Positions 19,726 to 46,794 of a stretch of 64,000 bases of DNA are shown here, one piece after another. Where the stretch lies: contig JAUCBJ010006747.1 of assembly GCA_032718475.1 (NCBI GenBank), positions 1 through 64,000 of the forward strand. Reading direction: 5' to 3'. Position 1 is the first letter of the stretch. Each line of letters opens with the position of its first letter. This DNA is from Nemertoderma westbladi (taxonomy: Eukaryota; Animalia; Xenacoelomorpha). The translations under genes were made by a program, and so were the position numbers. Under the pieces are notes generated by a model that was given only the letters and a program-made list of their open reading frames with translations, was not told the origin of the DNA and did not search any database.

Positions 19726-20135
19726 AGTAGTAGGAGAAGCAGTGTCCCCCTCATAGTCCTCCCTAGCTTGGGCTATGGGCATTCCATTCGGAGGGCTATT
19801 AAAAATGCCAATTTCCGGTGCTAAATTGTGGTGGGCGCCATATGTCACCATCGGCAGTTGCCATCAACCAATCGTAGCGTAGCCTAACCTCGCGATGCCC
19901 GCCTTACTCGACTACTGACTAACTACTAACCCTAATGTTATTCACCTTTTCGCCACGTTACCACCACTGTATACTGTATTTATGGTGACGACAACGACGA
20001 CGTGGCCGTCTACACGCATCACGCATATATTATATTATATCGATTGCCAACTCAACGATTTACCCACTGCCAAACCAACCAACCAGTATGATACATGAAA
20101 TTCCGCCACGTTCCAGCTACGCGTATACGAGCATT
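19726..20135 (+). repeat. Left TIR of the Maverick
   Basis: Reverse complement of 43338-43787; first ~240 bp almost identical, inner part has indels. Confidence 0.95.
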
Positions 20136-20381
20136 AGTGATTATTATTATTATTATTACGCAGAACCAAATAATTTTTGATTATACAGTAGTTCCCTACC
20201 AGCTAATCAACTAACCAATCAATAAACCGAATTTAGGCTATTTCTCAGTTTAAGACCTGTATTATTTTTGAAAATATCTTATATATAATCTCTTGCTTTA
20301 ATCACAATTAATCATTTGTAATGGTTTTAGTTTAAAAGTTTTTACTTTGTTTGTTTGATTTACAATAAAATAAATTAAATA

Positions 20382-20825: not shown

Positions 20826-21018
20826 CTTTTCCCGCTATATTATAAATATTTTATGATTATTTATAAAATTTTGATGTTTTTAATTATGAAAAAAAAAAAA
20901 AAAACATCAAATTTTAAATAATCAAAAATTGTAGTAGTAATTGTATATACAGTATAACAGATTTGTTTGTTGTTGTGTATTGAGGTAATTATTTTCAATT
21001 TACTTTAAAATTTGGAAA

Positions 21019-21690: not shown

Positions 21691-22353
21691 ATGGCTGACT
21701 TTAATTCAGGTCCATATAATTTAAACTTTCAAATGGGAACGAGTATGATAATTTCTGGCCCATCTGGTTCTGGAAAGTCAACATTTGTTAGCAATTTAAT
21801 TAAACACAAGAATGGTTGTTTCAACGAAGCCCCATTGCGAGTATTGTATTGTTACGGGAGCAATCCCCCAACTATTCCTGGTATTACTCACCTTTACAAA
21901 GGTTTGCCAGAAAATATAGATAGTTTAGTGAATAGTCGAGATTTATTAATTATAGTTATTAATATGATTTATTAACAGAAACTGAGTCCAGTACAGCTTT
22001 AACTGTATTGTTTACTAAGGTAGCTCATCATTCCAATATATTTATTTGTTTTATAACGCAAAACATGTTTTACGGTGGGAAGCATAACCGCACAAGATCA
22101 ATTAATAGCCATACTTTAGTATTAATGAAAAATCCGCGAGACAGTTTATCGGTTTTAAATTTCGCGAAGCAGATGTTACCAGGGCAGACCAAATTTTTAG
22201 TAGATTCCTATCAAGATGCGACTATTGAACCATTTTCGCATTTCTTAATTGATTTACGACAGGAAACACCCTAACATTTAAGATTTAGATCGGATATATT
22301 TCGTAATCATAATTGTTACATTAAAAATTACATTGACTATAAACGTAGCGATA
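21691..22353 (+). pseudogene. A32/FtsK-like genome packaging ATPase (disrupted)
   Basis: Walker A GPSGSGKS; Walker B LLIIDDL restored by removing an 8-bp insertion TTATTAAT (~21956-21963); HH.N...ITQN, KNPRD and IDL motifs; premature TAA at 22272. Confidence 0.9.
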
Positions 22354-22410
22354 ATAATAATAATAATAAATAATTAATATTTTATAACAATTTTCAATAA
22401 TGTTGCAACA

Positions 22411-22794
22411 ATGAATAGACTTGTGCAGAAATATCGTAACGAACTGGAATTTCTACGCAGCGCTACCCCTCAACAAAGAACTTATTTTATTAACCATACC
22501 GCGAGTAACGAATTAATACAGCTCATTGTAAATACTGCATTAAATGTTCTAAAAGGTAACGTACAATTGACCCCTCATTCATTTAGAAATATTCGCCACT
22601 ATAAAAAGGTATTGAAATCACTCAACCGTAAAACAAAAAATATATCAAGTTACAGAAAAAAGTTAAGCAATCAATCTGGAGGCATACTACCGTTTCTAAT
22701 ACCCTTACTCGGCATTGGTGCGAAACTCGCCGCGAGTGCCGGTGCTGCTGCCGCTGGAGCGGCTATTGCGAAAAAAATTAACCGTGGACGGTAA
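22411..22794 (+). CDS. Small basic virion protein with QSGG protease site and hydrophobic C-terminus
   Basis: K/R-rich N-terminal part, then NQSGG|ILPFLIPLLGIGAKLAASAGAAAAG; located between ATPase and integrase. Confidence 0.7.
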   Translation: MNRLVQKYRNELEFLRSATPQQRTYFINHTASNELIQLIVNTALNVLKGNVQLTPHSFRNIRHYKKVLKSLNRKTKNISSYRKKLSNQSGGILPFLIPLLGIGAKLAASAGAAAAGAAIAKKINRGR

Positions 22795-22796
22795 TA

Positions 22797-22967
22797 ATGG
22801 TTAAAACAGGAGTAACATTTAGAAAATTATATTTAGTATCGAGTAAACCGTTAGCTACTGATTTAAAACCTCAAGATATACCTAGAGTAAATACTACAAA
22901 AAGAAAACCCTTTAAAACATCAACTTCAAAGAAAATAATTAAAAAATTTCAGTTGTTTTTACGGTGA
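22797..22967 (+). CDS. Short lysine-rich ORF (56 aa)
   Basis: ATG 2 bp after the previous stop; MVKTGVTFRKLYLVSS...KKIIKKFQLFLR; below the ORF-track cutoff. Confidence 0.35.
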   Translation: MVKTGVTFRKLYLVSSKPLATDLKPQDIPRVNTTKRKPFKTSTSKKIIKKFQLFLR

Positions 22968-23018
22968 TGCCCTTTATAAGAGATTTGAATATACATATTA
23001 CTTGCGGTTGTCGAAAAG

Positions 23019-24108
23019 ATGCCACGCAAGATGAAACCGATTTTAAGCCGAAGCTTAGACAAAAAACTGTTAAGAATTTATTTAGATCCTTCATTCCCTG
23101 CGGGTTTGGCAAGTATCGCAAAATTAGCAAAAGCCGCAAACATCAAACCAGCTCAAGCCCAGAAATGGTTGAGCGGGCAAAAGACATACTCCCTTCACGC
23201 ACCATGTAGACATCATTATCCAACATCTAAAATATTTACGGGAGGCTTAAAAGATATATATATGATAGATCTGGTGGATATGCAGCAATATAAATCGCAA
23301 AATAATAATTATAACTATATATTAACATGTATTGATGCCTTTAGCCGGCTTGCTTTTGCCTATGGTATGAAAACAAAAAAGGGTATTGAAATTATTAGTA
23401 TATTGCAAAAAATATTCCAGAAAGGAAAACCAAACAGAATCGCAACTGATCAAGGGTCTGAGTTTCTAAATAAATCTGTAAGGAAATATTTAGATACTAT
23501 TGGTATACAGTATTATGTAATGTATTCTGTGAATAAGGCGGCTATTGTCGAGAGATTCAATAGAACATTAAAAACAAAGATGTTCAAAATTTTCACGCAA
23601 CGAGGAAATAATGTTTGGATAAAAATTTTACCGAAGCTCATTTATGCTTATAATAGGTCAGATCATAGGACAATAAAAATGACACCCATTGAAGTTAATA
23701 AATTTAATGAAACTGAATTAATGAATAGATTATATGGGAAATATAGACAGATTAATCACAAGAAAATAAAATTTAAAGTTGGAGATACAGTACGATTATC
23801 TATCGCTCGTACTGCTTTTGCTAAAGGCTATTGAGAACAATGGACACGTTAATTATTTATTATTCATCGGGTCAGATTGGATAGAGTACCAGCGGTAATG
23901 TTCGATATTAAGGACAGCGCTGGAGCTATAATAAATGGCTCATTTTATTCATACGAACTCCAAAAGGTCCACCCGAATAGTAATATTTATCTCCCGATTG
24001 ATAAAAATATTGGCAAACTTAAAGAACGTGTACGCAATGGGAAAAAATAATATTTAGTCCGATTCATCGGATCCAAGAAACAGTCGTGGGTACAGCATAT
24101 TCAATAAG
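23019..24108 (+). pseudogene. Retroviral-like (rve) integrase with C-terminal chromo-like tail, premature stops
   Basis: IDLVDM, CIDAFSR, TDQGSEF, KAAIVERFNRTLK (DDE core); FKVGDTVR..AKGY*EQWTR*LF; tail YELQKV..YLVRFIG..SWV. Confidence 0.92.
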
Positions 24109-24372
24109 TTTAGGTTTATACTGTATATTAATTCATTTTGGTCACATATGTCCGTAATTAATTAATCAATCAATATTAACTCGAATGATATTACTATACT
24201 ATAGTTCATTTGCTTTAAATAAAGCCAGTAAAATATTGATCCCTCGCATATACTGTAGAAGCGAAGCGGGAATGAACGTGGTCACCGATGTCTATAATTT
24301 AACATTATACCGTACTGTACTGTACTGTATGTACAAAGGAGTCAAGTAGAGAGAGCTTAAATAATAATAATA

Positions 24373-25254
24373 ATGGCTGTAGATACATATATCACTCTAC
24401 TTTCAGATAGCTCATTAAACACTTACCCCAATAATAACCCTAGCGAGTTTCCTGTTGATTTAGCCGAAGAATTATATATTGGTCCAAACGCTAAAATTGG
24501 ACTCGCGGAGATACAATACCAAGCAACATACAGTAATATTACTCTGCAAACTCAAATCTCGCTGTCAATCGGTGTAGATGCAAAAGATGCCAAATTATAT
24601 AGTTTATTTCCTGGTATGCATAGCTCTATTCAAGTCATTATTGATGATATAAATAAACTGTTTAATTCTGAAGCAAAATATAGAGATTTCGAATTCATTT
24701 TTAATACAAATAATTCTAGAATTAAATTTAAATTTCCTAAAAAGTTGAAAAAAATACAATTAAGTCTACGTGGTGATTTAATTCAAATTCTAGGCTTAAA
24801 ACCGTTATTGGATCAGAATCATCCGAGTATTCCGAATTGGGATATATACAGTACCACTACAGTGGATGAATTAAGCAATATAGAACAGCCGATATTAATT
24901 TTAAATTATAGTGGACCAAAAATTTCGGAAATTGGGATTTTAGATTTTCCAGCTCCCACAAATATTACTCGTAATAAAGATACTATCTTCATATATACAG
25001 ATATTATTAAGAGCTCATTTGTTGGTGACGCTTTAGCACCGCTCTTAAGAACCTGTCCTTTAACACAATTAAATCAAAAATATATTAATCACGAATACGA
25101 GAGCATTTGCTATTACCCGTTGTTGAATAAAAAACTAAAAACAATCTTAATTACTTTACGTGACGGTCAAGGTGAATTAATTAATTTCAACTGTGGTCGC
25201 ACTGTTATAACACTTAAGTTAATACGCGGTGGTGGTGGTGGTGGTGATGGATGA
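24373..25254 (+). CDS. Minor capsid protein (penton) 1
   Basis: N-terminal YITLLSDSS...YPNNNPSEF, GLAEIQY, IFIYTDII...VGD...PLLR, YYPL...I.I.LRD..GELINF..G..VITL typical of Polinton minor capsid proteins. Confidence 0.85.
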   Translation: MAVDTYITLLSDSSLNTYPNNNPSEFPVDLAEELYIGPNAKIGLAEIQYQATYSNITLQTQISLSIGVDAKDAKLYSLFPGMHSSIQVIIDDINKLFNSEAKYRDFEFIFNTNNSRIKFKFPKKLKKIQLSLRGDLIQILGLKPLLDQNHPSIPNWDIYSTTTVDELSNIEQPILILNYSGPKISEIGILDFPAPTNITRNKDTIFIYTDIIKSSFVGDALAPLLRTCPLTQLNQKYINHEYESICYYPLLNKKLKTILITLRDGQGELINFNCGRTVITLKLIRGGGGGGDG

Positions 25255-27377
25255 GTTCTACATTAGACTACCAAGTAACTCCTGTCCAATTGATTTTCCT
25301 CGTAATACTGGTAGTAATTATCAGATCAATTTCCATGGCGCCTTACCTATAAATCCAAACGAAAACTGGGTGGTAGGTATAAAAAGTATATTTTACTTAG
25401 CCACGTTACCGTCCATGTATAACTATGTACAGTCCCTATCTCATTCTAGATACCGTTTCTCAAACTGGGTACCTTTTCTCTTACCTCACTCTTACTAACT
25501 CAAACCTGTCTGGTTTACTCAAACCCAACTCAAACTCGCGTAACCACCCACTGTGCACTGTGTAGCATTCATACAACAAGCTGTCTGTGTTTAATGGCCC
25601 ACTTGCTTCTGTTATACTCTGCCTACGGGTTTGATGGTCTTCTGCTGTTATAACATTCCCTAAACTTGATTTGTTTGTGTGTAATTAACTCCAGTAGACA
25701 GTGAGAATTAAGTTGCAGACTCAGTGACTCAATTTATTTTTAAATTTCAGAATAAAAAAATTATATGCTAAATTATTAATTAATCTAAATCTCGAATAAA
25801 CTACTCGATCTACTAATTAAACTAAATTAATTTTTTATTGCATTTATTAAGTATTTATGACTCATAACATATTAACGTTATTTTACATTAAAATATAACC
25901 ATATAATATATAACCAACCAATTTTATAAATTTATTTTAATGTCGCGTATTTTCGCTAATGTTTCTAATGTTTAACTTTAATGTTTTACTAATGTTTAAT
26001 TCTCTATTACATCGTCAACACAATTATTCCCAATACATCCGGGTGTGGGCATACCGGGCAAAGGGGCCAGAGGAAACCTCTGTAATTATAGACAGGGCCA
26101 TATTTATGGGAGGGGGGTGGGGGGGGGGGGGGGGTGTTGCGAGGTCCCATATGCACTAATAATTCTTAATTAACAATTCGATTTTTAAACTGATATGTCT
26201 TGTAAGGCACCAATTGACATCAAACAGACAGACAACAGAGCACCAATTTCCCACAACAATATTCCCAGAATTAAAACTTTCTCTACAAACAGACCGAGCC
26301 AGTGTAGTTTAGTTAACAACATACATTTAGTAAAGCCCACAAAGGAACTGTGTGATTGACATGTCTTTTATGAGACACACGCAAGCCGGCCTGCCCAGCT
26401 TATGTAACTCAAGAGCCCAAGCAACACTAACAGACAGAGGCCCCTTCCCCATGTGGTGCCTCACTCAACCAGAGTAATTATCCATCCCGTACAGGAAGAG
26501 TAATGCTGAGTATGGCACAGTTGGAGGTCAACCTAACTCAAACCATGGTGCCAGACTCTAGTTTGAGTTAGATTGAGCTGGCTGCATCTTTCTGATTTCT
26601 CAACTCTTACCCCAGTCTTACCTACTGAAATTCTCCGTTGACTATCATTAGTAAACGGTTTGAGAAATGATACCCAGTTTGAGAAATAATATTCAGAATG
26701 AGATAGGGACTGTAGAGAATGTTATTTTATTAAAAAAAGGGAAAAAAAATTTTGAGGATACACTTCCATCCGGTTTGTTCTACAGTATCAATGACATTAT
26801 AGATTATTTTAACACTGGGGCGTTGAAAGATAAATTACAAATAGTTGAAAATACTCAGCAAAATAGGTTGCAATTTATTTTAGGGAAAACTGTACGAGAG
26901 TTATTTATAGGTCAACAATTAGCCTATTATTTTGGAATTACTGAAAATAATCTCGGCGCGAATTTAAATCCAAATTTTAAAATTATTTTGAAGACGAAAA
27001 ATAATATAAAGGGTTATTTAATAAAGGTTATCGGAAATGAAGAAAAAGCTTACCAGATGGTATTTTTATGCCCTCAACCACCCAATTCTATTCCAGAACC
27101 TAAATCGAACATGTACGTGACTACTAATATAATTGAAAATGAATATATTAATGACTTTGGTTTAGCCTTACTTCATCATGTCGCGATACCTGATGACGTG
27201 AAATATGGTAGTGTAATAAATAAAGAATTTGTCAAGGATACAATTCATTATATCCCTGTAAAAAAATCATATAAGATAACATACATTCATATTGAAATAA
27301 CAGACAAAGAAGGAAAAGATTTGAATTTTGAATACGGCACAACTTCAATTACCTTACACTTTAAAAAAATAAATTAA
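25247..27377 (+). pseudogene. Minor capsid protein (penton) 2, split by a MITE
   Basis: MDEFYIRLPSNS..FPRNT.SNY (25247-25429) joins in frame to ENVILL..MYVTTNII..YIPV..IHIEITDKEG..LNF..GTTSITLHFKK (26715-27377), giving 281 aa. Confidence 0.88.
25430..26712. mobile_element. Non-autonomous Tc1/mariner-like element (MITE)
   Basis: TIRs CAGTCCCTATCTCATTCT / AGAATGAGATAGGGACTG with inner TTCTCAAACTGGGTA match; TA duplication at 25428-29 and 26713-14. Confidence 0.9.
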
Positions 27378-27378
27378 A

Positions 27379-27945
27379 ATGGATTCCGATTTATTTCAAA
27401 GATACAGTAAACCTCAATATGGTGGTGCAGACTCTAATCTTGCTGTTGTTAAAGGTGGTAGAAGTACAAGAGGCTCGACGCAAGTTCCTGTTTTTCGAGG
27501 TGGTTCATATATTGACCCTTACGGACAACAAATTGGTGCATTTGGTCCAAACTTAAAACAACGTCGTTTTCAACGTTATCGTAGAGGTATGTTGCGAACA
27601 AATCAACACGGGGAAGGTATATTTACAGACGCTTTATCTACATTGAAAAAATTTGGTAAGCCATTAGCAAAAAAAGTGTTACAGAAAGCTTTACCATTTA
27701 CCACAAAATTTATGAGACAACACGTAATACCAAAAGGTAAGCGGGTCTTACATCAGCAGGCTAATACGGTTATTAATAAAGCATTAAATAAAATGAAACC
27801 ATCCACAAGATCGGTTGTAGAAAAAGTTTATAGAGACTTAAAGCGACGTACTAGACCAATGTCTATGAACATACATCATCGACGTAGTAAAAAGAGAAAA
27901 ATAAAAGGCAAACTGAAACACTGCGAAAAAAAGTATTTTTTAATA
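27379..27945 (+). CDS. Basic core (pVII-like) protein, currently in frame with the major capsid
   Basis: Very R/K-rich; Gly-Gly/GxG sites QYGG, VKGG, FRGG, QHGEG; precedes MSIIKELDLF. Confidence 0.6.
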
Positions 27946-29206
27946 ATGTCAATTATTAAGGAATTAGATTTATTTTCTACACAGCCAATACAGACTGAAT
28001 TTAAAGCAAAGCATTATGAAACAATTTACCCGGTATCCAATCTCAGAAGTGAGTCTAGGGAAGTCACGTTCCTTGTACCAAGATCCAATGAATTCTATAC
28101 GAAACTGCAAGATGCGTTATTAATTACAAAATGTACTGTACGGTGGGATAGACGACTTGAAAACTCCCATATTTATATGTTGAATTACCCCGCTGGAACT
28201 ATGTGGAGTGATATTAAAATAGACCTTAATGAGAAGCAGGTTGAAAATGGCAATAACCATTATTTCTACAAGTCGTACTTATCCAATTTACTATTTACAA
28301 CATACGAATCTAAAAATGGGCTACTGGGGGCGGGTGGATTTCATCAGCCTTTATCCGAACACGGAAATGAAATTGATCCTGGTGCGCATCCTATTGGCGA
28401 TGCCTTTAGTAAACAAATGCAATTTGTAAGTGGATTGACAATTGATTTTGATACTGAAACTAAAATAATACAACCCGGGTATGATTTAAGAATGCATTTT
28501 AGAAAAGTATCAAATTTGTTTATTTTTAAAATCACTCCAAACACAAACGCTGTGACAAATCTTCGGTTAGAATTAGATGAAGTAAAGATCCTAATCTCTA
28601 GAATGGAGGTTAATCCCGTAATAGAAAGCAGTCACCTAAAAGGTTTAGAGAGTTACGATATTGAATATCAATTCCAAAAAAAGGAGGTTACAACATTTAC
28701 TATTCCCGCACAAACCACAAATTACACCCAAACAAACATATTTGATGGTAAAAAACCCAAATTAGTTATTATCGGTTTTATAACAAATAATGCATTATTC
28801 GGGAGAATTAATTAGTAACCCCTTGAAATTTGAACATTTTAACCTTAGACGCGCGGAACTGATTGTAGACGGTCTTCCAGTAGGTGGTGTAATATACGAG
28901 CCTAATTTTACAGATGGAACATACATTTTTGAGTATACTCAATTAATGAAAAACATTAATACATATATTAACGGTTATGGAGGTAATAATATAGACCATG
29001 AAACCTACTTAGGTAATTGCCCACTCATATCCTGGGACCTAACCGCCGACGGCTATGTTAGAGATCCGTAACCATCGATATTTACTAACGGCCAATTAAA
29101 ATTAAGATTTGCCGAACCGTTGGTTGAGACCATAAATGTAATCGTTTTTATTATTTATGATCAATCATTAAGTTTAAATAGCAGGAAAGAAATACATATT
29201 GATTAA
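27946..29206 (+). pseudogene. Double jelly-roll major capsid protein (frameshift ~28805, in-frame stop 29069)
   Basis: ELDLF..PIQT, YFYKSYL..LL, IFDGKKPKLVIIGF, NPLKFEHFNL, WDLTAD, LKLRFAEPL.ETINVIV..YD motifs of Polinton MCP. Confidence 0.9.
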
Positions 29207-29208
29207 GT

Positions 29209-29661
29209 ATGTTATCTACAGAGGACCTTGATATGTTTCCAGTGGGTGGTCACTATTTGGGAGCGTTTCCATCTAACAAATTACCTAAATTAGATAATAA
29301 TAAGCGGAGAGATTATGGGTTAATAGTAAACACCGATAAACAGCATCTACCCGGGGTTCATTGGATAGCTATATATATACGAGATAATGAGGCTGAATTA
29401 TTTAATTCGTTCGGACCAAAATATCCAAACAGATGTATTGAAAAATGGCTTGAGAAAAATTCAGCAAGATGGCGTACTACCCAGAAACAATTTCAAGACC
29501 CCAGGAGGACCACATGTGGATTATACTGTCTTTATTACTTGGTAAATCGAATTCACACAAACTATCCAATGAGAGCGTTTACAAATAATGTCGAAATAAA
29601 TGAAATAATATTATATAAATGGCTTGTTAATTATTATAAAATAAACCAACAAGCGTTGTAA
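29209..29661 (+). CDS. Adenain-like cysteine maturation protease
   Basis: GAFPSNKLP, IVNTD..PGVHWIA, FNSFG, QFQ...TTCGLYC. Confidence 0.9.
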   Translation: MLSTEDLDMFPVGGHYLGAFPSNKLPKLDNNKRRDYGLIVNTDKQHLPGVHWIAIYIRDNEAELFNSFGPKYPNRCIEKWLEKNSARWRTTQKQFQDPRRTTCGLYCLYYLVNRIHTNYPMRAFTNNVEINEIILYKWLVNYYKINQQAL

Positions 29662-32422: not shown

Positions 32423-32985
32423 TCACTCGCACGAATTATATTTTACATCAAAAACCCTCGCACCAAACAATAATAAATTATTAACCAGTTTGTTGAATAT
32501 AGGATAATATATATGAAATTTAAACGGGGAACACATTAATGTACATTTACCAGTGTAGAAGCAGCAAACAACAACAATATTATTTATTCTGACTTTACAG
32601 TTATTGAATATTTCGGGCTCGTATTAAATTTCTAGTTTAACATTATCAAATATAACATAAAACCCGATATTGTTTATAAGTAACCTATAAATTACGGTAT
32701 CGATACTAAAAATATAAGTACACAAATTGATTGATTTAAAAATCAAATTAATGTTTGTTTTTTCGAATATATGCTTTTTCACTTTATTAAAATTATATTT
32801 TCTACCGAGAATTGTTATTCGTCCATTTGTAAACATTAATATGGTTGCACCAAATACCTTATATATAAACTGATTAGGTTTGAGTACAATTTTACCATTC
32901 AATTGATTTTTAATTCTTTTAAATTAAGTCCATAAATGATCTGCTTACAACTTATATTTTTATTTACTATTTGATAATTCATCAT
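32423..32985 (-). pseudogene. TATA-binding-protein-like gene (one frameshift, one in-frame stop)
   Basis: Reconstructed MNYQIVNKNISC..LNLKEL/NQLNG..KPNQFIYKVFGATILMFTNGRITILG..*YEPEIFNNCKVRINNIVVVCCFYTGKCTL; two TBP-like repeats (ATALIFSSGK.V..G and YEPELF..IF.SGKVVL). Confidence 0.62.
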
Positions 32986-35900
32986 CAACACCATCGTCTT
33001 TTGGTTCTTCATAAATTGGTATATTTGATATTTTTATAGGTTTTTTGAGGTTTGTTTTATAGTGCCCCCAAGGAAGTGATTGATTTTTATTAACCCAATA
33101 AAGTTTATCATCAAAGCTACTGAGTGCAAATTTATTTTGCTTTAAGGTATAAATACGATGTAATTTAGATTGAAATCTGTGTATGTTTTTTTTTATTTCT
33201 TCATTTGAGTTATATGCTTTTAAATATTCTTCATGTTCGATTCTTCATGTGTAATATTCGTTTCCACAATAGCTCTTGTAATACCTTTTGCTCTACGAAT
33301 ATTTTTGTTATTCCATTCCAAAATTGAATATAATTTTGGTCTTAAAAATACTGCTTGTTTAATTTCAAGTGAAGCTAGTTCATCTTTACAGTAATAAAGT
33401 CTCGATTTATTTTTATCGCTGTAGAGAGGGTGATCCTTAGGGTAATTGGATGTATCTAAAATATTATTTTTAATTAATGCTTTTAAAAAATTATTCTGCG
33501 ATGTATTATAGTAACATCCTATTAAAGAGTCTGTATCTGATGCAGCAATTTCAATACGGCAGTTTAATTCTTTCTCAATAGGTAGCAATTTATTATAAAA
33601 CAGCTCATACATATCCAATTTAGCCAAGTCCAACACAGTGCTACCAATAAATATAGGCTTATCGAGAGTTACAGAGTCTTTCACTAATAAATGTCCCGAT
33701 AATGTATTATTGTATATTATAAATTGTTCATGATTAATACGATTTACCAATTGGTCGCATTTATCATTGCTATTTGCAATACGAAAGTTACATCGATCTC
33801 TTATCTTTTCTATTGATTTGCCAAATAACGAATTATTAAGCAATTTCGCGACAGCTGTTTCAATGTAACTTTTTGCTAGTCGCCTTTGATTAATATTAAA
33901 ATCGATGTAATTTTTAAATACAAATTCTTGTTGAAAAGAATATAATTTATGTAGTTTAGTAACAATTAATCCATGTTTTATATAAAATTTTAACAGTTTC
34001 AAATGTAAATGATAAAACTCTTTATCAAATTGCGTCAGCAAGAGTTTTGGTATAGGCATCCTATATTTACGGGAGGTACCTCTTTGTATCGATAAGTTAT
34101 TAAATTGTTCCCTCATATAAGGCGAAAGCATTGATTCATTTATACTTAAATGCTCTGGAGCTAACGGTAATTGTAATGTTTGATCGTGAATAGCTTTGGG
34201 ATAATTTAAATCACATATTAAAAAATATCCAGTAGATCCATCAATTTCTAAATCTACCAAGTACTCGATTAGTTTTTCTGGAATTGCATTCTCTAAGTGT
34301 TTAATACTTACTTCTTTGAATTGTGAGGTGGGTAGTTTTTTACTTAAATTCCCAGAATATAAAGAGTTGAAATCAATATTAAAAATATGGCATTCTTCCT
34401 TAGTAGAATCATATGTACTTGTTCCTGGTATATTTGATTCTATATAATGCTTTCGACAAAATGAAACACCACCCCTAATTGATTTTTCAAAATCTCTATA
34501 TGTCTGATAATCCTTTATTAATTCTATTTTACATTTATTATATTTTAGTGCGCAATCATAGGTAAATGACGCGATACTACAGTAAAAAACCGCTTCTAAA
34601 TCGTAATTTTGTTTACAAACCTTCCTAAAATTCTCAAATATATCAGCAAGCAAACAAACATTGAGTTTTAAATAGGCTAAAAGATAATCTTTGAGATTCA
34701 CACAGTCGAATTGTACCCATGATAATTCCGCAAACCTATAATCTTCAATTGTGCATGTTTTTTGACTTAAGTTACTAAAAAAATTATTTATAGACGGCAA
34801 ACCAGTATCATTAAATTTATTTATATCTGTCAAGTACTCGTATGGAAATACTCCTTTCCGTTTAATTGTTGAGTTATTCAAGTTTGGATAAAAATATTTC
34901 ATTTCTTGTAGAGTAATAGGTAAAATTGAGCTTATATCATGACTCGCCACATCCTTTGTTGAACACTCAACTAAATTACTTAAAGAAAAGCTTAAAAATT
35001 GATATGTGTCTAAGAAACGTAACTCAATTTTCTTAGAAGTGTTTTTAATTGGGATAAATGTACTCAGTGAAATATATCGTTCTGTATTTCTCGGTATAAC
35101 CTTTATATCCCAATCTGTGTATTTCTTATCTCTAAATCCGGTTTGTAATATACAATGTATATCATAATTACTGGAATTATGCCCGCAAAGTACATACAGG
35201 TATCGTTTCAATGATAAACTTTGGTCACAACTATTACAGGCTGCCGCAATATATTTACCTGTAATATGTGAATGATGTCTGTTTTTCCCTACATTATTAT
35301 TTAAAGTAACATTACAATAGAAACAAAATTTTGCTTGTTCAAAATTTACAAAATCAATATTAGTAAATGACATAGTTTTATGAGTGTATATTTCTGACCA
35401 ACAACATAATTCAGTTAAATCAGTATATAATGAATCTAAGAAATCTTGAATACAATTATTATTATTTGACTTTACGAATGTTTTCAAATGACATTTTGGA
35501 GCATCAATTAATTCAGTATTAGGAACAATTAAATAACTCACAGCACACGGTATATGCTCCTGTATAATTTGATTATTAACTGAAGGTTGTAAGATACATT
35601 CTATATCAAAGTAGGTGACAAACAATGGGGTTAAGGTTCTATCTAAATTTGTAAAACTAATGTGTGTTCTTTTTTTATTAGGTAGTTTCTCTCGTTGACT
35701 TCTTCCTTGGTAGCATGCGAGACGGTGTCGATGAAGAACTTCCGCTCGAAAAAAGTGAGCCAAACACCTTTCACAATATTTCCTATTCCCGATATGAAGA
35801 GCTCTCGTATTCAGCAATCGATTCAAGTTAGTTATGCTAACATAATGATTCAGTTTAGGTACATTGTTATTTTTTACTACAAGTAATATATTTAATAACT

Positions 35901-36112
35901 GTTTATCAGGTGTAATTTTACTAAACGGAGGTTGTCTTAATATAGATACAGGGGTGCGTTTGTTGTCGTTATTCCAACATAGTAAATTAATTATATATTT
36001 TGAATTTTGTTTTTCAAAAAGTTTAATCGCTAACTGCCACTCTGTTGGATAATCATTTTTCCCGTTGTCAAAAATGAAATGACTCATATAATTTTTGTAC
36101 GACGAAGTAAGC

Positions 36113-38324
36113 TGATAAACAACCGCGACACCTATACTAACAGCAGAACTGTTGAACAGACCAATACCCGTTAATATCCTTCTGCCAACCTAATAAGTTC
36201 TCGTCTAACCAATAAGACACAAAGACTGCTCTACTGTTAAGTAAAGGGGATCAGGAGCGTGCTATTACTAAATTGTAAGGGTTGCTAAATACAAAACCGC
36301 TACTTACCGTTGGATGGCGCTAATCTGCCGTCCGCTAATATATTTTACTAAATTTACACAACTCCTGCAAAATCGCTTGTTCCTTTCTCTACCGATCGCT
36401 CGATAGAGAGCTAACTGTTCGAATCTATAAGCCACGCGGGAATAACCAAATCAATAAATCCGAGTCGGCTCCCTAAGCTTACTTAAGACGAGTACGAGGG
36501 GCTTTGCACTCAGAGTATATTCTTACGCCTAATTTTACTACTGAAATACGCTAATGCCTACGTCTTTTCTAATCGCGAATACTGGGGGTTCCCTAACGGA
36601 ATGTGTGAATGCGAGAATATTTAAATAAATCAAAATTGGTACAGTACAATGTCTTTCGTAGGTGTTACCGCTCTGGGTCTAAACTTGCCTGCAGCTGGCT
36701 TTAGGCCAGCAACTTACTAGTGTCTTGCGTACTAACTATTGCGATCTAGTTTATTGCCCGCTAATTCAAATAACCGCTCAGCGTGAATAGTTTACGGTAC
36801 TCTAATTATTACCTTAGCTACTCTCCGCTATGCTGCGTACTAATTCTTAATTTTACTAATTAATTACAGTCACAAATATGTAACAGCGCACTAATTACTA
36901 AGAGTTCCAGAATGCGTAATTCTAATTTATTACACAACAGGTTTCACTAGTAATAGCCTAAAATGCCGTATTACTTTGACCTAATCAGTAATTATTTGTT
37001 GTAACTAAGAAATAGAAATCAATCAAAAGGGAAAGGGTGCCTACCTAAGCATTCGTAATCACAGGCACACTTCAGTAACACACCAATCAGTGTCAGCAAT
37101 CACAGATCACAATAGCACGACTTGCAATTATACAATCTGCAATTATATAATTCGCAACTTACTTACGTACTTACCCACTTACTTACTGTAAGGTATGCAG
37201 GCCCCTCCCGGGTACATCTAGGCTTCCTAACTAACCCAATTCCTGCCCCCTAATACTAAATAGAGACAAAACCTTGGATCATCAGCCCCCTAATTACTGT
37301 ACCGGCGAGCGGTCTCCAACCCACAGTCCAAACTGCCCGACCGCAACGTTGACCCCCGCCAGCGTTGCCCGCTTTTGAATCCTCCGCTCTCCCTTAGTCG
37401 CCCAACCCCCCGATGTGCCCACCGCCCACTGGCGCCTTAGCCCTCCATTATGCTAATAGCTACCGTAGCGGCGCATGCAAATCACAAAGTCTGACAGTCT
37501 CAGAAATCCCTTAGGATTATTGCGCAGAAAGGAATCACGTAGAACCATTAATCAAAAGGTAGAAATCATAGTTCAGTTGTAATTAGCAGTAATCGACAGG
37601 AATTAATTGAGAAACACAAGCAAGAATAATCGCACTCGAATTATTTTAAGAAACTAATCAAAATTAGCAAATTGCAGAAAATCAGTCAAAAAATACATAG
37701 GGACAGCTCAGCAAGTACAACAGCAATAAGTGGGGTGTCACGTGGGGTTCTACCGGCACGCCGTCAATTTATAGGTGATCCGAGTGGGATGATGCAATAG
37801 GGTGACTCAATCGCTCTCCTATTGGCTCTCCAGTCCGTGCTAGCACTAGACCAACCTGGAAGCAGCTAGTCCAATAAGGAGGCCGGATTGTAGCCCTATG
37901 CCCTCAAATTATTACCATATATGGTAATGGTTCACGTCTCTGGCTGCTGAATGGCCAGGACAGCGTCCCTATATGCTAGCCCTACTAAAGCTAATATCAG
38001 CAAGCACGGAATCCAGGGTCCGAATAAACTTACCCTGGAACTATCTACATATAACCTAATACAAAATTACGTAGGTAGGGCTACATACTATACAAAATGA
38101 ATGGATTCAACTATATGGGTGTTCCGATTTCCCTATCTAAATATCATTGCGTCATTATGCCTTATCTAAAATATTATGCTGCACAACGGACTAATATTAC
38201 GTACAGTATAACGGACTAATATTGCATACTGCATAACGGACTAATATTGCATACTGCATAACGGACTAATATTGCATACTGCATGATGACTAATAATATG
38301 GATACAGCGCCATATACCGTAACA
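36113..38324. mobile_element. 2.2-kb TG...CA insertion, probable solo LTR
   Basis: Starts TGATAAAC, ends CGTAACA; TSD TAAGC at 36108-36112 and 38325-38329; removal restores PolB frame NNKQLTSSYKNYMSHF; 25-bp tandem repeats at ~38186-38285. Confidence 0.85.
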
Positions 38325-38847
38325 TAAGCTGTTTGTTGTTTTTCACTTTGCTACCAAATTTTGCGGTTATAATAGCCCATTTGAAACAGTCATTATCAGC
38401 CGTTTGTATATTTATTGTACAATTTTTACCTGATAGAACCTTAGGTAATTCCATATATCCATGCCCCTTATATAGTAACGACCTACACTTAGATTCAGCT
38501 AATTTAATTTCAACCCTTAATAAAGATTTAATACGCCACCCTGAACCACGTGTGTTAAAGATGGCTATTTTTTGTAATATATTTTCCACCACATACTCAA
38601 ACCATGTGTCAAAACTTTGTGATGAATCTACAGTATTAATAGCACCACCGGAAGAATTAAAATAAAAAGTTTCCAATTGCTCGCCTTCTGAAAAATGTGA
38701 TCTGTACATTAATACATTTAGACCTAACCACAGTCTAAGAACATTCATTTCTTTCAATCTATCTAATATTAACTGAAGAATATTACCTCGAATTTGCGTT
38801 AATGCTGTTTCTACATCGGGATAATCTCTAGAAGTTGGGAGGTCGTG

Positions 38848-40999
38848 CACTAGCGTAGCGAGGGTAGGGTCCCAGGGTCCCGGGACCCTACCGTGGAGAT
38901 TCCAACTTACATCGTCAAGTTCCGTTAAATTAAAAAAATTATAATGACAAGTGCAATAAACCGAATATTAGAAAATATTCGAAGTTGAAGTTGCTTTGGA
39001 AAGGAGCCCGACCCCAGACCAGATACAATCCACATTATCCCAGGCAGGTTGCCAAAGAAAATAAGTAGTAGAAAGGAGACCATATACCCCATCAAAGTGT
39101 TGTAGCCAGGCCTCCAGCCACACTACCAATAATTCCCTCAGGCACCCCCCCTCCCCCCCCCCCCCCCCCCCGCCCCCATGATAAGGCATCATAATATCAT
39201 ACAATGTTCTTAGAAAGCCAGCTTATTACTTAGGCCTATATTATATAATCTCTCAACCAGTTTAATAGTCTGTAATGTAAAGCAATGAAATGGAGCCCAA
39301 TTGACCACTGCAGGGGGGCGCCCACTGGCTCCTGCCTTGGTTTCTGTGCTTTGATTAGACGACGTCGCTGTGCCTTGCCTGTCAAGCAGGGTTCAATATA
39401 TACCAATGAAAGATAGCATAAATAAGATAGGCACTCTGACTCTGATGTAATATAATGAATTATGTAATTTTTTCTGGGCACACTGACCAACGTGATTGGA
39501 TATTGCGTAGCTTGTCTTGCCGAGTCACAACTAAATAACCTGTGGGTGGCTATGTATTTTAATTCAATATTATTATTAATACCATGAAAATTACTTTGAA
39601 ATGTAATTAATTAGAACATTAATTTTTTTTAACAAAAAAACGTTTTTTTTTTTACTTTCAATAAATCAAAAAAGTGTATTTAATAATGTACCGGTACCAT
39701 AATTAGTTCAATTTCAAAATGTGGCAGTTTATAAAATAATATACCATGGTGTGGGGTGGGGGATTGTTTCACGAAGCGACATTTAACTAAATGGAAATCG
39801 CCGATTTGTAAATAAGGTATTTAAAAAACGGAAGCACATTTAAATTTTACGTCCCTTAATTTAAATGACATGAATTGAAATTTGCCTACTGTCATTTTGC
39901 AATACTTTTATGTTATCAATACATGTTGTTATGATTCCATGGTAGTAGGGCCTATAGTACTAGTTTTTAAGAATAAGTTAACTGTTCTTAATAGAAATAT
40001 TATTAAATTTACTGAAAAGCCATGACAGCATGACGACCAGACCAGTTGCTATGCCGTATAACTATTATTATGTTAATGAGTTTAAATGACACATCATTAC
40101 GTAAATGATTTAAAGCTAAATGACAGGGGGATAAATGACACGCGAATAGCAGTTTCTTGAAACATAAAAACTTTCTGTTATAATTAAAGTATTATTTTTA
40201 ATCTTTCCAATTAAGCCAAATTAAATGACCGTATGTAAAACAGTCCCCTCAGTTTAATTATAATATTAATTTAATTTATTAATTCAATTTCATTTGTAAT
40301 TTCAGTAACTTACTTTATAACTATGATTTTATCATATTAATTCTTAATAGCGGATTTTCTAAATTACTCATCTTTACTGGGGGGGGGGGGGGGGGGGGGG
40401 GGGCTTTACTGGGGGAATGAACATGTACTGGTGCGCATTACTCAGAATGAGTAGTATACCGACTACTGTACTACAGGCTACAGGTTGGGTGCAACCTTCG
40501 CCCGAGTACAACCTTCGCCCGCGCCAATTTCGCCCGTCCACACTTCACCCCGGGGAAAACCTTCGCCCGCAAGGCAATCTTCCACCGCGAACAACCTTCG
40601 CCCAATAAGATTTGTGTTAGTAACCATTTTAGTTACCAATTAAGGGAAAGGAGCAGGTTACAGAGACGGCTTCTTCTAACCAAAACAATAAACGATGTTG
40701 TTACCAATTTAAGGTAAGGAGCAGGTTACAGAAACGGCTTTTTCTAACCAAAACAATAATTGTTTAGTTGGCGATGGTTGCTCGCGGAGAAGATTGTCTG
40801 CGGGCGAAGTTTGCTGCGTACCCTACTAAACATTACACATCACGTGTGGCGGGCATTTTGTTAAAATTCCAAACAATCACACCTGGACTACGCTGGGGGG
40901 GGGGGGGGGGCTCTTCCCCCACACCCACAACTACTATAAATATGAATTACAATTTGGGGTCTGGGACCCTACCGTAGGAAATTCCTGGCTACGCGGCTG
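38848..40999. mobile_element. Non-autonomous hAT-like element
   Basis: 8-bp TSD AGGTCGTG (38840-47; 41000-07); imperfect TIRs CACTAGCGTAGCGAGG / CCTGGCTACGCGGCTG; subterminal GGGACCCTACCGT at both ends; removal restores YVHDLPTS. Confidence 0.88.
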
Positions 41000-41605
41000 A
41001 GGTCGTGGACATAAATTTCAAGACGATTATCGTGAGCTTCTTGTTCCCGCGTAAAAATTGTTGCGCATGTACCAAGAGCCACCCTTAATTTTTTTCTAGA
41101 TAATATATTTTTATGTTGCGGAAATTTACGCTTTCTTGTGTAGTAACATTTCAAGTGACAATCGTGTCGTAAATAATTCTCATATGTATACTCTTTATTA
41201 CAGGTAGAACAAGTCAATTGATAGGTACGGAACTCCATTTCTTTACAACCAGTAGTTGATTCATGTCGTTTACAAATTTCGCTGCATGAAGTCACGACGT
41301 GACACTTAAAACAAGAATAACCTTCAAAATGTGACCGTAGGTGGCGTAAATAATTATGTCTAGTTACATTCATATGACAGAATGAACAACATATTGTTAT
41401 TTTATCCATGCTGAAGTTTGTTTAGATAAATAATAATAATAATAATAATAAAATATCTCCAAAGATTAAAATAAAATGAAATGAAATGATATTGACTATA
41501 TCTAAACATTTATATGCTAGCGAGTGAAATAATTTTAAACCAATCACCAAACACCAATCACCTATGGGTATTGGAAACCTCAAAGAGTTTAACTTATGAT
41601 CAGGT

Positions 41606-42670
41606 TTACATGTTAGGATAATAATCTGGTTTCCATGGAGAATTAGTAACTAGATCTACTGGAGCTGGGTTAACAGCAACTTTCTGTTTCTTTGCAGGTG
41701 ATGCGTTGGTAAATTTACTCGATGATCTTGGCTTCCGAGGTAATATTTCAGGAAAGACCTGTTGCGGTTGAGAGCAACTCTCTTCAACATCCGGATTAGG
41801 TGATGGGATCTCTACGAATGCTTTAGGTTTATCCAAAAGGACAAAACCATCTACATTGGCTTCAATAAGAGAAACGCCATCCATAGCCTCTTTGAGAAAA
41901 CTAATATGGGCTTTATCATTCAAGTAATGCAACTCAATAGAATTTCCACCTGCTCCTACTTCAGTAGAATTATCGGTGTTGGTGATAATAATTTTTTTAT
42001 TATTGGTTTTAATCATTTTGAGACGGTCTGATAATTGAATGATATTTTTATCAAAAAGATGCTTGTCTGGTTCATCAATTTGAGTGTCCCACTCTCGCAA
42101 CAAAACGGTTAGTTCCTGATTTGACAAATTGAAACCCGTATAATAGTTAAAACCAACACTATCAGCGTATCTGACGCTGATTTTCCATAAGCCAACATAG
42201 TTGGTTCCTTTAAAAGCTGTTACAAATCCAATAAACTCTGGATTTGATAATTCAATGTAGAATTGATCGCTAATAATCTCTAGCGGTGGAGAGAGAAATT
42301 GCAATAATTTCCCTCTGTATTGAATTAGAACTTCAGTAAAAGCTTTGTTGAGGACTTTACATTTGCCTTGTTTCTGAACGTAAACATCACCCGATGTGGG
42401 GTTGATAGAAATATTCAAATTTCCCCGCGCAAAACGAAGAGCGGCATATATCCTACCTGGTATAATTGCTGGTCTGGATTGATGTTGGTTGTTGGTTGTT
42501 GTTTCTAGAATGTCTAGCAAATAGCGGGTATCTTGATGGGAAAAACAAATTGATTCGTTGTCCTCCTGAGATTCCACAATAAAATACTTGCTGTGAACGA
42601 CGGTACAAGTATATTTATTGTAAGTAAATTTCCAGCTATTTGTTGCTCCGGTTTTTTGCGTTAAGGCCAT
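41606..42670 (-). CDS. PC4-like (ssDNA-binding/coactivator) domain protein, 354 aa
   Basis: IELSNPEFIGFVTAFKGTNYVGLWK..TGFNLSNQELTVLLREWDTQID resembles PC4 core VSVRDFKGKVLIDIRE..KGISLNPEQWSQL..DID; NLS-like PAKKQK near the C-terminus. Confidence 0.55.
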   Translation of the reverse strand: MALTQKTGATNSWKFTYNKYTCTVVHSKYFIVESQEDNESICFSHQDTRYLLDILETTTNNQHQSRPAIIPGRIYAALRFARGNLNISINPTSGDVYVQKQGKCKVLNKAFTEVLIQYRGKLLQFLSPPLEIISDQFYIELSNPEFIGFVTAFKGTNYVGLWKISVRYADSVGFNYYTGFNLSNQELTVLLREWDTQIDEPDKHLFDKNIIQLSDRLKMIKTNNKKIIITNTDNSTEVGAGGNSIELHYLNDKAHISFLKEAMDGVSLIEANVDGFVLLDKPKAFVEIPSPNPDVEESCSQPQQVFPEILPRKPRSSSKFTNASPAKKQKVAVNPAPVDLVTNSPWKPDYYPNM

Positions 42671-42727: not shown

Positions 42728-43027
42728 GTAATAAATTGACACCATAGTTCTCACTCTAAAATTGTGATGGTCGGAAAACGACACCTAGAGAAAAATGATG
42801 CTGAGTTCGACATTAGGTATCGATCAAAAAACAAAAATCTGAGCAAGACACATAGCTCAGATTTTCGTTTTTTGATCGATACCCAATGCTGGAATCAGTA
42901 TCATTTTATGAGGTGTCGTTTTCCGACCAACGAATATACAACGAGTAAGATAATGTAGAAATTATTAAGGAAATAACAACAATTTCAGAGTGAGAACAAA
43001 AAATTAGATATGGTATCAATATATTAC
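42728..43027. repeat. ~300-bp imperfect palindrome bracketed by a 21-bp direct repeat
   Basis: Arms GGTCGGAAAACGACACCT..GTATCGATCAAAAAAC.AAAATCTGAGC / GCTCAGATTTT.GTTTTTTGATCGATAC..AGGTGTCGTTTTCCGACC; ATTACAAGTGAT(A/G)AATTTTAA at 42696 and 43035. Confidence 0.85.
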
Positions 43028-43337: not shown

Positions 43338-43787
43338 AATGCTCGTATACGCGTAGTTGACGCGTGGCGGAATTTCATGTATCATACTGGCTGGTTGGTT
43401 GGTTTGTTGGTTTGGCGACAGCAGTCGTTGAGTTGGCAATCGATATAATATAATATATAATATCGAGGGAGGGTATATGCATGATGCGTGTAGATGGCCA
43501 CGTCGTCACCATATACAGTATACAGTGGTGGTAACGTGGCTGGTGGTGGTGGTAACGTGGCGAAAAGGTGAATAACATTAGGGTTAGTAGTTAGTCAGTA
43601 GTCGAGTAAGGCGGGCATCGCGAGGTTAGGCTACGCTACGATTGGTTGATGGCAACTGCCGATGGTGACATATGGCGCGCACCGCAATTTAGCACCGGAA
43701 TTTGGCATTTTTAATAGCCCTCCGAATGGAATGCCCATAGCCCAAGCTAGGGAGGACTATGAGGGGGACACTGCTTCTCCTACTACT
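43338..43787 (-). repeat. Right TIR of the Maverick
   Basis: Reverse complement of 19726-20135. Confidence 0.95.
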
Positions 43788-44892: not shown

Positions 44893-45821
44893 TCCATTTA
44901 ATTTTTTTTTTTAAGTTTTTAATTATTTTCTAATATTATTATTCGTAGAAATTAATGAAAATATAACCTGAAAAAAAAACACCAAAACGAAAAAACGTAA
45001 AAAAAAGAAGCTATTAATATTTAAATAAAATTTTTCTAAAAGACTCGGAATGTGCAGCAAAGGACTCTTTGACGCATGCAGCATTACCGACCTGGATACA
45101 AACCCCTAAACGTTGACGGAGGTGTTCAATCGATTTTTTGTTGCCAGATACCTTCTCTATACGGTGCCCTAGCTCACGTAGGAATGTTATCGTAGAGGTA
45201 CCAAGACCTCCAGTGATTCGACAGCTACAGGTTGAATTATATAATTACGTGAGAGTTCGCCGTATTCCATTTAACCGTAGTCCATTTAATTATATTTTTA
45301 TATTTAATAATATCGGAAAAGTGCCCTTTCCAGCAAAGTAAATATTATAGTTACATTAGCAGCTAGAACAGTTAGGATTCACATTATCCCAGTGCCAATA
45401 ATGTGCTTTAAAAAGTACCCCACACATTTCGAATCGGGCTTCAGATCAACCAATCCCCCCCCCCCCCGCCCTATTCCTACCTTAATATGCTCTGACTAAA
45501 CCAATGGATATTTGTCATTATGTAAAAAATTTAAAAAGTACCCTTTTTTTTGAAAAAACGAACCGCTCTTTTAAAATCCTGGCTACGGGACTGTAAAACA
45601 TTCTCATAGTGTTGTTAGTGGGTGAAATATTAACTTACATCTGACGGTGCCTGAATTGTACTGTATTGAACAGCAAATAATGAGTGTTAGTCAGTCTGTA
45701 TGGATATGTAATTTCGTACGTATATAAAATGTAAAATATAAACAAATTATTTTTTATAGATTATATATGTAAAGATACATATAACAAAACAATATCATTT
45801 AACTAAAATGTTGGTTTTTGA

Positions 45822-46794
45822 TGAACCATTAACCTAAGTCGTGGAACCATTAACCCATGTCGTGGAACCATTAACCCATGCCATGGAACCATTAACCCAT
45901 GTCGTGGAACCATTAACCCATGTCGTAGAACCATTAACCCATGTTGTGGAACCATTAACCCATGTCGTAGAACCATTAACCCATGTCGTGGAACCATTAA
46001 CCCACGTCGTGGAACCATTAACCCATGTCGTGGAACCATTAACCCATGTCGTGGAACCATTAACCCATGTCGTGGAACCATTAACCCATGTCGTGGAACC
46101 ATTAACCCATGTCGTGGAACCATTAACCCATGTCGTGGAACCATTAACCCATGTCGTGGAACCATTAACCCATGTCGTGGAACCATTAACCCATGTCGTG
46201 GAACCATTAACCCATGTCGTGGAACCATTAACCCATGTCGTGGAACCATTAACCAATGTCGTGGAACCATTAACCCATGTCGTGGAACCATTAACCCATG
46301 TCGTGGAACCATTAACCAATGTCGTGGAACCATTAACCCATGTCGTGGAACCATTAACCCATGTCGTGGAACCATTAACCCATGTCGTGGAACCATTAAC
46401 CCATGTCGTGGAACCATTAACCAATGTCGTGGAACCATTAACCCATGTAGTGGAACCATTAACCCATGTCGTGGAACCATTAACCAATGTCGTGGAACCA
46501 TTAACCCATGTAGTGGAACCATTAACCCATGTCGTGGAACCATTAACCCATGTCGTGGAACCATTAACCCATGTCGTGGAACCATTAACCCAATGTCGTG
46601 GAACCATTAACCCATGTCGTGGAACCATTAACCCACGTCGTGGTACCATTAACCCACGTCGTGGAACCATTAACCCATGTCGCGGAACCATTAACCAATG
46701 TCGTAGAACCATTAACCCATGTCGTGGAACCATTAACCCATGTCGTGGAACCATTAACCAATGTCGTGGAACCATTAACCCATGTCGTGGAACC
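45822..46794. repeat. 21-bp minisatellite A, ~46 copies
   Basis: Unit GTCGTGGAACCATTAACCCAT. Confidence 0.97.

What the first reader, a model, noticed from the sequence alone, without database searches (positions are those of the whole stretch)
41606..42670. Intact PC4-like ORF upstream of PolB; with the TBP-like gene it brackets the polymerase as a possible transcription/replication module
Seen: the minus-strand gene order from the right TIR is PC4-like, PolB, TBP-like, opposite the plus-strand virion genes. Residues ~135-200 match the PC4 pattern (FKG..V.L...G.NL...E...L), flanking segments may be degenerate extra repeats, and there is an NLS-like PAKKQK. Established: PC4/Sub1 binds ssDNA and acts with TBP/TFIIA in pre-initiation complexes, and protein-primed strand-displacement replication needs an SSB. 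Inference: this is the element's SSB and/or a coactivator partner of the TBP-like protein. It is also one of the longest ORFs still intact in a heavily decayed element.
Basis: partly seen in the sequence, partly recalled or inferred. Interest (0 to 1): 0.75.

Follow-up and report, generated by a model that had tools for sequence, protein, structure and literature searches.

The report
Maverick triple-PC4 DNA-binding protein
An intact gene just upstream of the DNA polymerase in a virus-like Maverick transposon encodes a protein predicted to carry three copies of the PC4/PUR fold that binds single-stranded nucleic acid, so it is likely the element's own replication helper rather than a partner of its TATA-binding protein.

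Summary
The 354-codon ORF is intact, and the minus-strand order from the right TIR is ORF, PolB, TBP-like. Sequence alone does not prove PC4: Pfam PF02229 and PDB sequence searches are blank, and only one homologue exists among 1.84 billion representatives. Two low-confidence models point to the PC4-like superfamily. Residues 9-129 match Pur-alpha repeats I-II (Z 9.5; top 7 VIA rows all PC4-like type I). Residues 132-199 rank PC4/MoSub1 first, with weak scores. The predicted layout is PURA-like: a paired domain, a third repeat and a disordered tail. The TBP-partner idea gains no support: in 109 related polymerase loci, PC4 hits (4 loci) and the TBP hit (1 locus) never coincided, though the loci are fragments. 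Best reading: the element's single-stranded-DNA-binding protein for protein-primed replication (about 55%). Staying intact is unremarkable (about 40% by chance). A MOSUB label and a TBP label already appear on published adintovirus/MELD maps. This scan also found PC4 plus TBP in other Mavericks before. The three-repeat form is the new part.

The parts
41606..42670 (-). Intact 354-aa ORF; predicted tandem PC4/PUR-like nucleic-acid-binding protein
42284..42646 (-). Residues 9-129: repeats 1+2, predicted type I PC4-like (PUR I-II/Whirly) domain; repeat 2 is basic (8 K/R, 2 D/E)
   Evidence: VIA Z 9.5, rmsd 4.4, 120 aligned to Pur-alpha 3k44; Foldseek PURA E 2.9e-3; pLDDT about 55-60; composition
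42071..42277 (-). Residues 132-200: repeat 3, PC4-like and aromatic-rich (13 F/W/Y); best-conserved stretch with P0001 (YVGLW; G-x-x-L-S-x-x-E)
   Evidence: Foldseek top rows 1pcf and 4bhm (E 0.27-0.30, prob 0.77); VIA top rows 5a4n Z 5.4 and PURA repeat III Z 4.8
41885..42064 (-). Residues 203-262: possible degenerate fourth repeat; fold not established
   Evidence: strands then a helix at pLDDT <35; barely tested by the fold searches
41609..41875 (-). Pro-rich, predicted disordered tail with NLS-like PAKKQK (41681-41698)
32960..41409 (-). Protein-primed PolB gene, broken by two inserts (about 36.1-38.3 kb and 38.8-41.0 kb) and a frameshift near its 3' end; 5' zinc-finger part at 40969-41409
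32449..32950 (-). TBP-like gene, broken (internal stop; frame break near its 5' end; start approximate)
   Evidence: Pfam PF00352 E 3.1e-5; tblastn with the L037 TBP E 9e-6
21691..29661 (+). Plus-strand module: packaging ATPase, integrase, minor capsid-like genes, major capsid, adenain-type protease (several broken)
19726..20135 (+). Left terminal inverted repeat
43338..43787 (-). Right terminal inverted repeat

Best explanation
This intact Maverick gene encodes a protein predicted to contain three PC4/PUR-type repeats plus a floppy tail, and it likely serves as the element's own single-stranded-DNA-binding protein during protein-primed replication. Shown: the open frame, its place 196 bp upstream of PolB on the same strand, and one distant full-length homologue. 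Predicted: repeats 1 and 2 fold together into a PUR I-II/Whirly-like domain, and repeat 3 is PC4-like. Inferred: the beta-sheets would coat the strand displaced by PolB and melt its hairpins. Repeat 3 would pair either with a second molecule (as PUR repeat III does) or with the degenerate segment 203-262. The tail would carry nuclear import and protein contacts. The TBP-like gene is likely a separately acquired promoter factor.
For: (1) Fold: of 48,161 chains, the top 7 VIA rows for residues ~9-130 are Pur-alpha (Z 9.5, rmsd 4.4, 120 aligned), 2nvn 8.2, 2it9 8.0, MRP1/2 6.7, SsgB 5.7, PBF-2 5.3 and StWhy2 5.2. All are classed as type I PC4-like in PMC7549692 (sections and supplement). The first unrelated row is at Z 4.9. 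Foldseek's top hit is PURA I-II. (2) A separate model of residues 126-275 ranks human PC4 and MoSub1 first and T5 PC4 fifth in Foldseek. VIA ranks a PC4 homologue and PURA repeat III first. (3) The gene is real: P0001 is 24% identical over 216 columns and keeps the repeat-3 core. Of 28 listed copy differences inside the ORF, 12 are synonymous against 21-28% expected (P 0.009-0.06; a selected subset). (4) It is co-oriented with and adjacent to PolB. (5) pPolB viruses often encode their own non-OB SSBs (PMC4889955 passage). A phage T5 PC4 homologue acts in replication (PMC7549692). (6) PC4-family genes occur in 4 of 109 related pPolB loci, none with a detectable TBP.
Against: Both models are poor (mean pLDDT 36 and 34; alignments of 2 sequences). 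No Foldseek PDB hit reaches E<=0.001, and the repeat-3 scores are within background (Z 5.4; E 0.27). Pfam, PDB-sequence and ESM Atlas searches found nothing. The fold does not fix the function: SsgB has it with an acidic surface thought not to bind nucleic acid, and MRP1/2 bind RNA. The ORF is net neutral (38 K/R, 38 D/E). No homologue of it was found beside any of the 109 related polymerases, so it is not a conserved replication gene. The other Maverick PC4 genes lie elsewhere (antisense, after the protease, in L021 and L066).
Confidence: 0.55

Rival explanations
1. PC4-like coactivator working with the element's TBP-like protein (and host TFIIA/Pol II) at viral promoters: the first reader's transcription module.
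For: Cellular PC4 stimulates transcription in a TFIIA-dependent way (PMC9409219 passages). Both genes flank PolB on one strand here. Earlier unchecked notes of this scan saw both genes in the same element in other genomes.
Against: 0 of 109 related loci carry both: 4 have PC4 hits only and 1 has TBP only (fragments, and Pfam is insensitive to this ORF). In L037 the TBP gene sits before the ATPase, away from PolB. The predicted layout resembles PURA more than the small PC4 coactivator. No shared promoter word stood out upstream of this element's genes.
Confidence: 0.15
2. PC4/PUR fold used as a sequence- or structure-specific factor: melting the terminal-repeat origin or the large upstream hairpin, or binding viral RNA, as Pur-alpha, Whirly and MRP1/2 do.
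For: The best structural match and the predicted I-II + III layout are those of Pur-alpha, which binds ssDNA, dsDNA and RNA and unwinds duplexes. A strong hairpin lies 100-260 bp upstream of the gene (z -16.5).
Against: No Pfam PurA hit. No target motif was identified. The hairpin may be an unrelated insert.
Confidence: 0.15
3. The PC4 resemblance is a modelling artefact of a generic sheet-plus-helix arrangement, and the protein is an unrelated accessory protein.
For: pLDDT never reaches 70. Z of 7-8 is typical background for models without a clear match (tool note). The sequence tests are not significant.
Against: One superfamily fills the top 7 rows for the N-terminal half and tops both searches for repeat 3 in a separately folded model. 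hhalign gives the same register.
Confidence: 0.15

Closest known systems
Pur-alpha/PURA (PDB 3k44, 8chv, 8chw; PMC7549692, sections read)
   Same: Predicted type I bbbba-linker-bbbba domain followed by a third repeat; best structural match of residues 9-129; repeat III second-best for residues 127-200.
   Different: 8-12% identity, no Pfam PurA hit, virus-borne. Dimerisation through repeat 3 is unproven, and a degenerate fourth repeat is possible. [quoted passage not shown]
PC4/Sub1 family, PF02229 (human 1pcf, MoSub1 4bhm, phage T5 4bg7, BPSL1147 5a4n)
   Same: Repeat 3 aligns in register and ranks these first by fold.
   Different: No Pfam hit; a multi-repeat protein of 354 aa rather than one ~60-residue repeat that homodimerises.
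PC4 genes of other Mavericks/adintoviruses (MOSUB label in Suppl. Fig. S2 of PMC8502044; L021, L046, L066, L104 here)
   Same: PC4-like gene carried by a pPolB element; tandem repeats in L046 (2 Pfam stretches).
   Different: Those are Pfam-detectable and shorter (107-251 aa), three with a C-terminal Cys cluster, and none has significant similarity to this ORF. That MOSUB means MoSub1/PC4 is my reading of the label; the supplement text held was cut and gave no definition.
SSBs of protein-primed replicons (PRD1 P12, PMC11886824 passages; adenovirus DBP and phi29 p5, recalled)
   Same: Likely role: coating the displaced strand; P12 also has a disordered C-terminal tail.
   Different: Different folds (P12 is OB-like).
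Maverick/Polinton elements of animals (PMC8097293 passages)
   Same: (AGT)2//(ACT)2 ends, two convergent gene modules, accessory regions near the ends, size within the reported 12.7-24.6 kb.
   Different: PC4, TBP and TATA do not occur in that paper's main text.

Membership tests
PC4/Sub1 family (PF02229) | Profile match above the gathering score (25 bits) | tested here: not met
   No Pfam family for the whole ORF (E<=1), for three slices (E<=10) or for P0001
PC4/Sub1 family (PF02229) | Single bbbba repeat that homodimerises (type II) | tested here: inconclusive
   Repeat 3 ranks PC4 first at weak scores, but the chain has further repeats; the pairing was not resolved
PC4-like superfamily (PUR/Whirly/MRP/PC4) | bbbba-linker-bbbba topology with swapped helices | tested here: met
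   Predicted only, at pLDDT about 55-60: Z 9.5 over 120 residues to Pur-alpha; top 7 rows all type I members. The first sheet of repeat 2 shows three strands in the model
PC4-like superfamily (PUR/Whirly/MRP/PC4) | Binding of single-stranded nucleic acid on the beta-sheets | not testable with these tools
   Composition only: repeat 2 basic, repeat 3 aromatic
PUR family (PurA) | PUR repeat sequence signature (Pfam PurA) | tested here: not met
   No Pfam hit; 8-12% identity in structural alignments
Maverick/Polinton | pPolB, integrase, ATPase, protease, capsid genes, TIRs with (AGT)2 ends, 6-bp target duplication | tested here: met
Element-encoded TBP+PC4 transcription module | Co-occurrence of the two genes across related elements | tested here: inconclusive
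   0 of 109 fragmentary loci with both; 4 PC4-only, 1 TBP-only; Pfam misses divergent members such as this ORF
Element-encoded TBP+PC4 transcription module | Physical interaction of the two proteins | not tested
   The TBP-like gene of this copy is broken; no co-fold was run

The most novel reading that the evidence does not exclude
Mavericks have independently evolved the PURA architecture (a paired PC4-like domain plus a third, dimerising repeat) and use it as a helix-destabilising SSB. That would be a second protein with this layout beside Pur-alpha, a new fold class of SSB for protein-primed replicons, and an answer to which protein coats the displaced strand in Polintons.
Probability: 0.25. 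Interest if true: 0.65.

Novelty: new variant of a known kind. Interest (0 to 1): 0.42.

Why it matters
Protein-primed replicons often encode their own SSB. I found no paper naming one for Polintons/Mavericks (searches; term look-ups; open-access library only). PC4-fold genes of at least two sequence-unrelated kinds in these elements would fill that gap and are easy to assay. This one is invisible to Pfam, so such genes are probably under-annotated. The interest is tempered: PC4-like and TBP-like labels are already on published maps, the scan has reported the pair in other Mavericks, and the function here is inferred from low-confidence models.

Tried and rejected
Blank or unhelpful searches:
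- Pfam.
- PDB by sequence: 0 hits for the protein; 3 at E 0.3-0.6 for the 2-sequence profile, two of them an SH3 protein sharing only YVGLW.
- Word-index homologue searches: none for the protein, only P0001 itself for the alignment; near lengths only, so fused or shorter forms were not searched.
- ESM Atlas twice.
- Metagenome scan with A1: 0 of 598 candidates confirmed.
- Viral scan with PolB alone: 0 of 3.
- BFVD Foldseek: 5 rows at E<=0.001, all unnamed or uncharacterised with rmsd >13.
- Family search by handle: only 6 of 29 viral records were held; 0 PC4 and 0 TBP.
- No whole genome was held.

Homodimer prediction of residues 126-275: score 0.00, verdict 'no answer'; not evidence either way.

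Expression: no RNA holder was listed. Run X5 is only guessed to be RNA, is another organism label, and also covers part of an insert, so it says nothing on expression.

Internal sequence repeats: none of 6 unit pairs beats shuffles.

A shared late-promoter word such as TAAGAA (lead from earlier notes): no TAAGAA or TAAGAG within 150 nt of the 14 starts I chose, apart from overlap with a TATAAG before the integrase. TATAAG stood before 3 of 14; no shuffle control, and some starts are approximate.

Domestication of this copy: rejected as unneeded, since intactness has about 40% chance.

Survey bookkeeping: 5016 stop-to-stop frames from 109 loci. Core-gene frames were removed and 520 accessory ORFs kept; 513 were scanned and 7 dropped (over 700 aa or with an ambiguous residue). 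The metagenome scan kept the best 80 of 570 confirmed stretches from 10 of 64 parts.

Full report
Setting. The ORF lies in a 24,062-bp Maverick/Polinton at 19726-43787. Its terminal 242 nt are 99% inverted repeats, its ends read AGTAGT...ACTACT, and GACGAG is duplicated on both sides. The plus strand carries a packaging ATPase, integrase, capsid genes and an adenain-type protease. The minus strand carries, from the right end, the 354-aa ORF, PolB, a TBP-like gene and a 117-aa ORF. PolB is in pieces. Contigs from other copies skip a 2.16-kb stretch (4 of 4 runs) and a 2.2-kb stretch (3 of 4 runs), so these are inserts in this copy. The zinc-finger ORF at 40969-41409 is therefore most likely the start of PolB, and the focal ORF ends 196 bp upstream of it. 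The TBP-like gene passes Pfam's cut-off when read with X at its stop and matches an intact TBP-like gene of locus L037.

Is it a gene? About 1e-8 open frames of this length are expected in the element by chance. One homologue was found among 1.84 billion representatives: P0001, 311 aa, E 1.4e-4, 24% identical over 216 columns, an unnamed protein on a 1497-bp contig. The ORF is covered by many related contigs in the DNA runs, some only 80-90% alike. Of the 40 differences that one search listed (85 found), 28 fall in the ORF. Twelve are synonymous, against 21-28% expected (P 0.009-0.06): a hint of purifying selection from a selected subset. Being intact means little. I count at least 13 breaks in about 14 kb of coding DNA, which leaves a 1.06-kb gene whole about 40% of the time (my estimate).

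Is it PC4? By sequence, not demonstrably. Pfam gives nothing for the protein, three slices or P0001. PDB sequence searches and the ESM Atlas are blank. An HMM from 7 PC4 units of other Mavericks scores it at -2.2 bits (133 of 1000 shuffles reach this) and P0001 at 1.7 bits (13 of 1000). hhalign puts residues 152-195 in PC4 register with P 0.015-0.05 but a probability of only 1-3%.

By predicted structure, probably yes. The full model is weak (mean pLDDT 36; about 55-60 over parts of residues 11-126) but shows repeated strands-then-helix units. Foldseek's best PDB hit is human PURA repeats I-II (E 2.9e-3). VIA over 48,161 chains gives Pur-alpha Z 9.5 (rmsd 4.4, 120 residues, model 9-129), then 2nvn, 2it9, MRP1/2, SsgB, PBF-2 and StWhy2. 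All seven are type I PC4-like folds in PMC7549692 (Results parts 1-2 and supplement passages). A second model of residues 126-275 (pLDDT 34) ranks human PC4 and MoSub1 first in Foldseek (E 0.27-0.30), and a bacterial PC4 homologue (Z 5.4) and PURA repeat III (Z 4.8) first in VIA. Those scores alone are background; the agreement between separate models and tools is the evidence. Residues 203-262 may be a fourth, degenerate repeat; this is unresolved. The tail is Pro-rich and predicted disordered. PAKKQK fits a K[KR]xK pattern found in 25% of shuffles, though P0001 has one in its tail too. I put the fold assignment at about 80-85%. The predicted layout, a paired domain plus a third repeat, is that of Pur-alpha, which the review calls the only reported factor with both domain types.

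Partner of TBP? I gathered 109 loci with related polymerases (29 viral, 80 metagenome) and scanned 513 of 520 accessory ORFs with Pfam. PC4 hits at E<=0.01 occurred in four loci: L046 (1.2e-14, two stretches, the only one over the cut-off), L066, L104 and L021. TBP occurred in one, L037 (2e-15). None had both. L037 has the best integrase match to this element. Its TBP gene sits before the ATPase, and no PC4 was seen in the 18.8 of 23 kb held. No homologue of the focal ORF was found in any of the 109 loci. The loci are fragments and Pfam misses this very ORF, so the test is weak, but nothing in it supports an obligate module. Earlier unchecked notes of this scan report TBP and PC4 together in Mavericks of other genomes and reach the same split reading. 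They are leads, not independent support; none matched this sequence.

Mechanism. Protein-primed polymerases displace a strand without a helicase, and viruses that use them often encode unusual SSBs (PMC4889955 passage). PRD1 P12 is one, with a disordered tail (PMC11886824 passages). PC4-like domains bind single-stranded nucleic acid and can melt duplexes, and phage T5 uses one in replication. A PC4-fold gene directly upstream of and co-oriented with PolB is therefore most simply the element's SSB (55%). Rivals: a PUR-like origin, hairpin or RNA factor (15%); a coactivator with the TBP-like protein, as cellular PC4 works with TFIIA (PMC9409219 passages) (15%); a wrong fold (15%). The fold does not guarantee binding: SsgB has it with an acidic surface.

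Prior art. Starrett et al. (PMC8502044; section 3.4 read, supplement passages) list TBP in the legend of Fig. 5 and show a MOSUB label on an adintovirus map in Suppl. Fig. S2. The supplement was cut when stored, and I saw no definition of the label. Term look-ups found no PC4 or TBP in the main texts of PMC8097293, PMC10748475, PMC11071308 and 10.1101/2024.03.25.586562; their supplements were not seen and may bear on this. Searches for Polinton with PC4, coactivator or ssDNA-binding gave only irrelevant hits.

Verdict. A real, intact accessory gene of an ordinary Maverick. It likely encodes a multi-repeat PC4/PUR-fold protein, unrelated in sequence to the PC4 genes of other Mavericks and most likely an SSB. 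The transcription-module reading is unsupported. New variant of a known kind; interest 0.42.

Noticed in passing
window 42768-42929: Near-perfect ~160-nt hairpin 100-260 bp upstream of the ORF start (DNA fold -67 kcal/mol, z -16.5); related contigs from other copies carry it too. Could be a small insert or a regulatory/origin element.
   Followed up: partly
L037 14633-15142, 11783-12643, 13037-13489, 17674-18141: A close relative has an intact TBP-like gene just before its ATPase, a KilA-N gene, and two similar-looking ~150-aa ORFs with no Pfam family; by eye these could be OB-fold SSB candidates, untested.
   Followed up: no
L046 6229-6849 (-), L021 11376-11885 (-), L066 13550-13870 (-) and 2298-2666 (-): A second Maverick PC4 family (two repeats in L046; C-terminal Cys cluster), mutually similar at E 1e-10 to 1e-32; antisense after the protease in L021 and L066. 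L046 also has a Bcl-2 family gene at 4778-5221.
   Followed up: partly
window 41609-41630 and the tail of P0001: Both homologues have D-Y-[YF]-P near the C-terminus, a possible short interaction motif; chance not excluded.
   Followed up: no
window 25428-26714: A 1.3-kb insert with 58-nt inverted ends splits what looks like a second minor-capsid-like gene.
   Followed up: partly
window 27379-28815: A basic ~190-aa region runs in frame into the major capsid gene, whose homology starts near 27955; true fusion or lost stop not resolved.
   Followed up: no
window 20989-21468 (+), 29693-30298 (+), 20379-20825 (+), 31329-31682 (-): Other open accessory ORFs: a RING-finger-like protein (Pfam E 0.001, below cut-off), a 201-aa ORF with an exonuclease-like D-x-Q start (by eye), and two ORFs with no significant Pfam family.
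   Followed up: no
window 45800-48600: Minisatellite arrays outside the element give repetitive ORFs on both strands.
   Followed up: no
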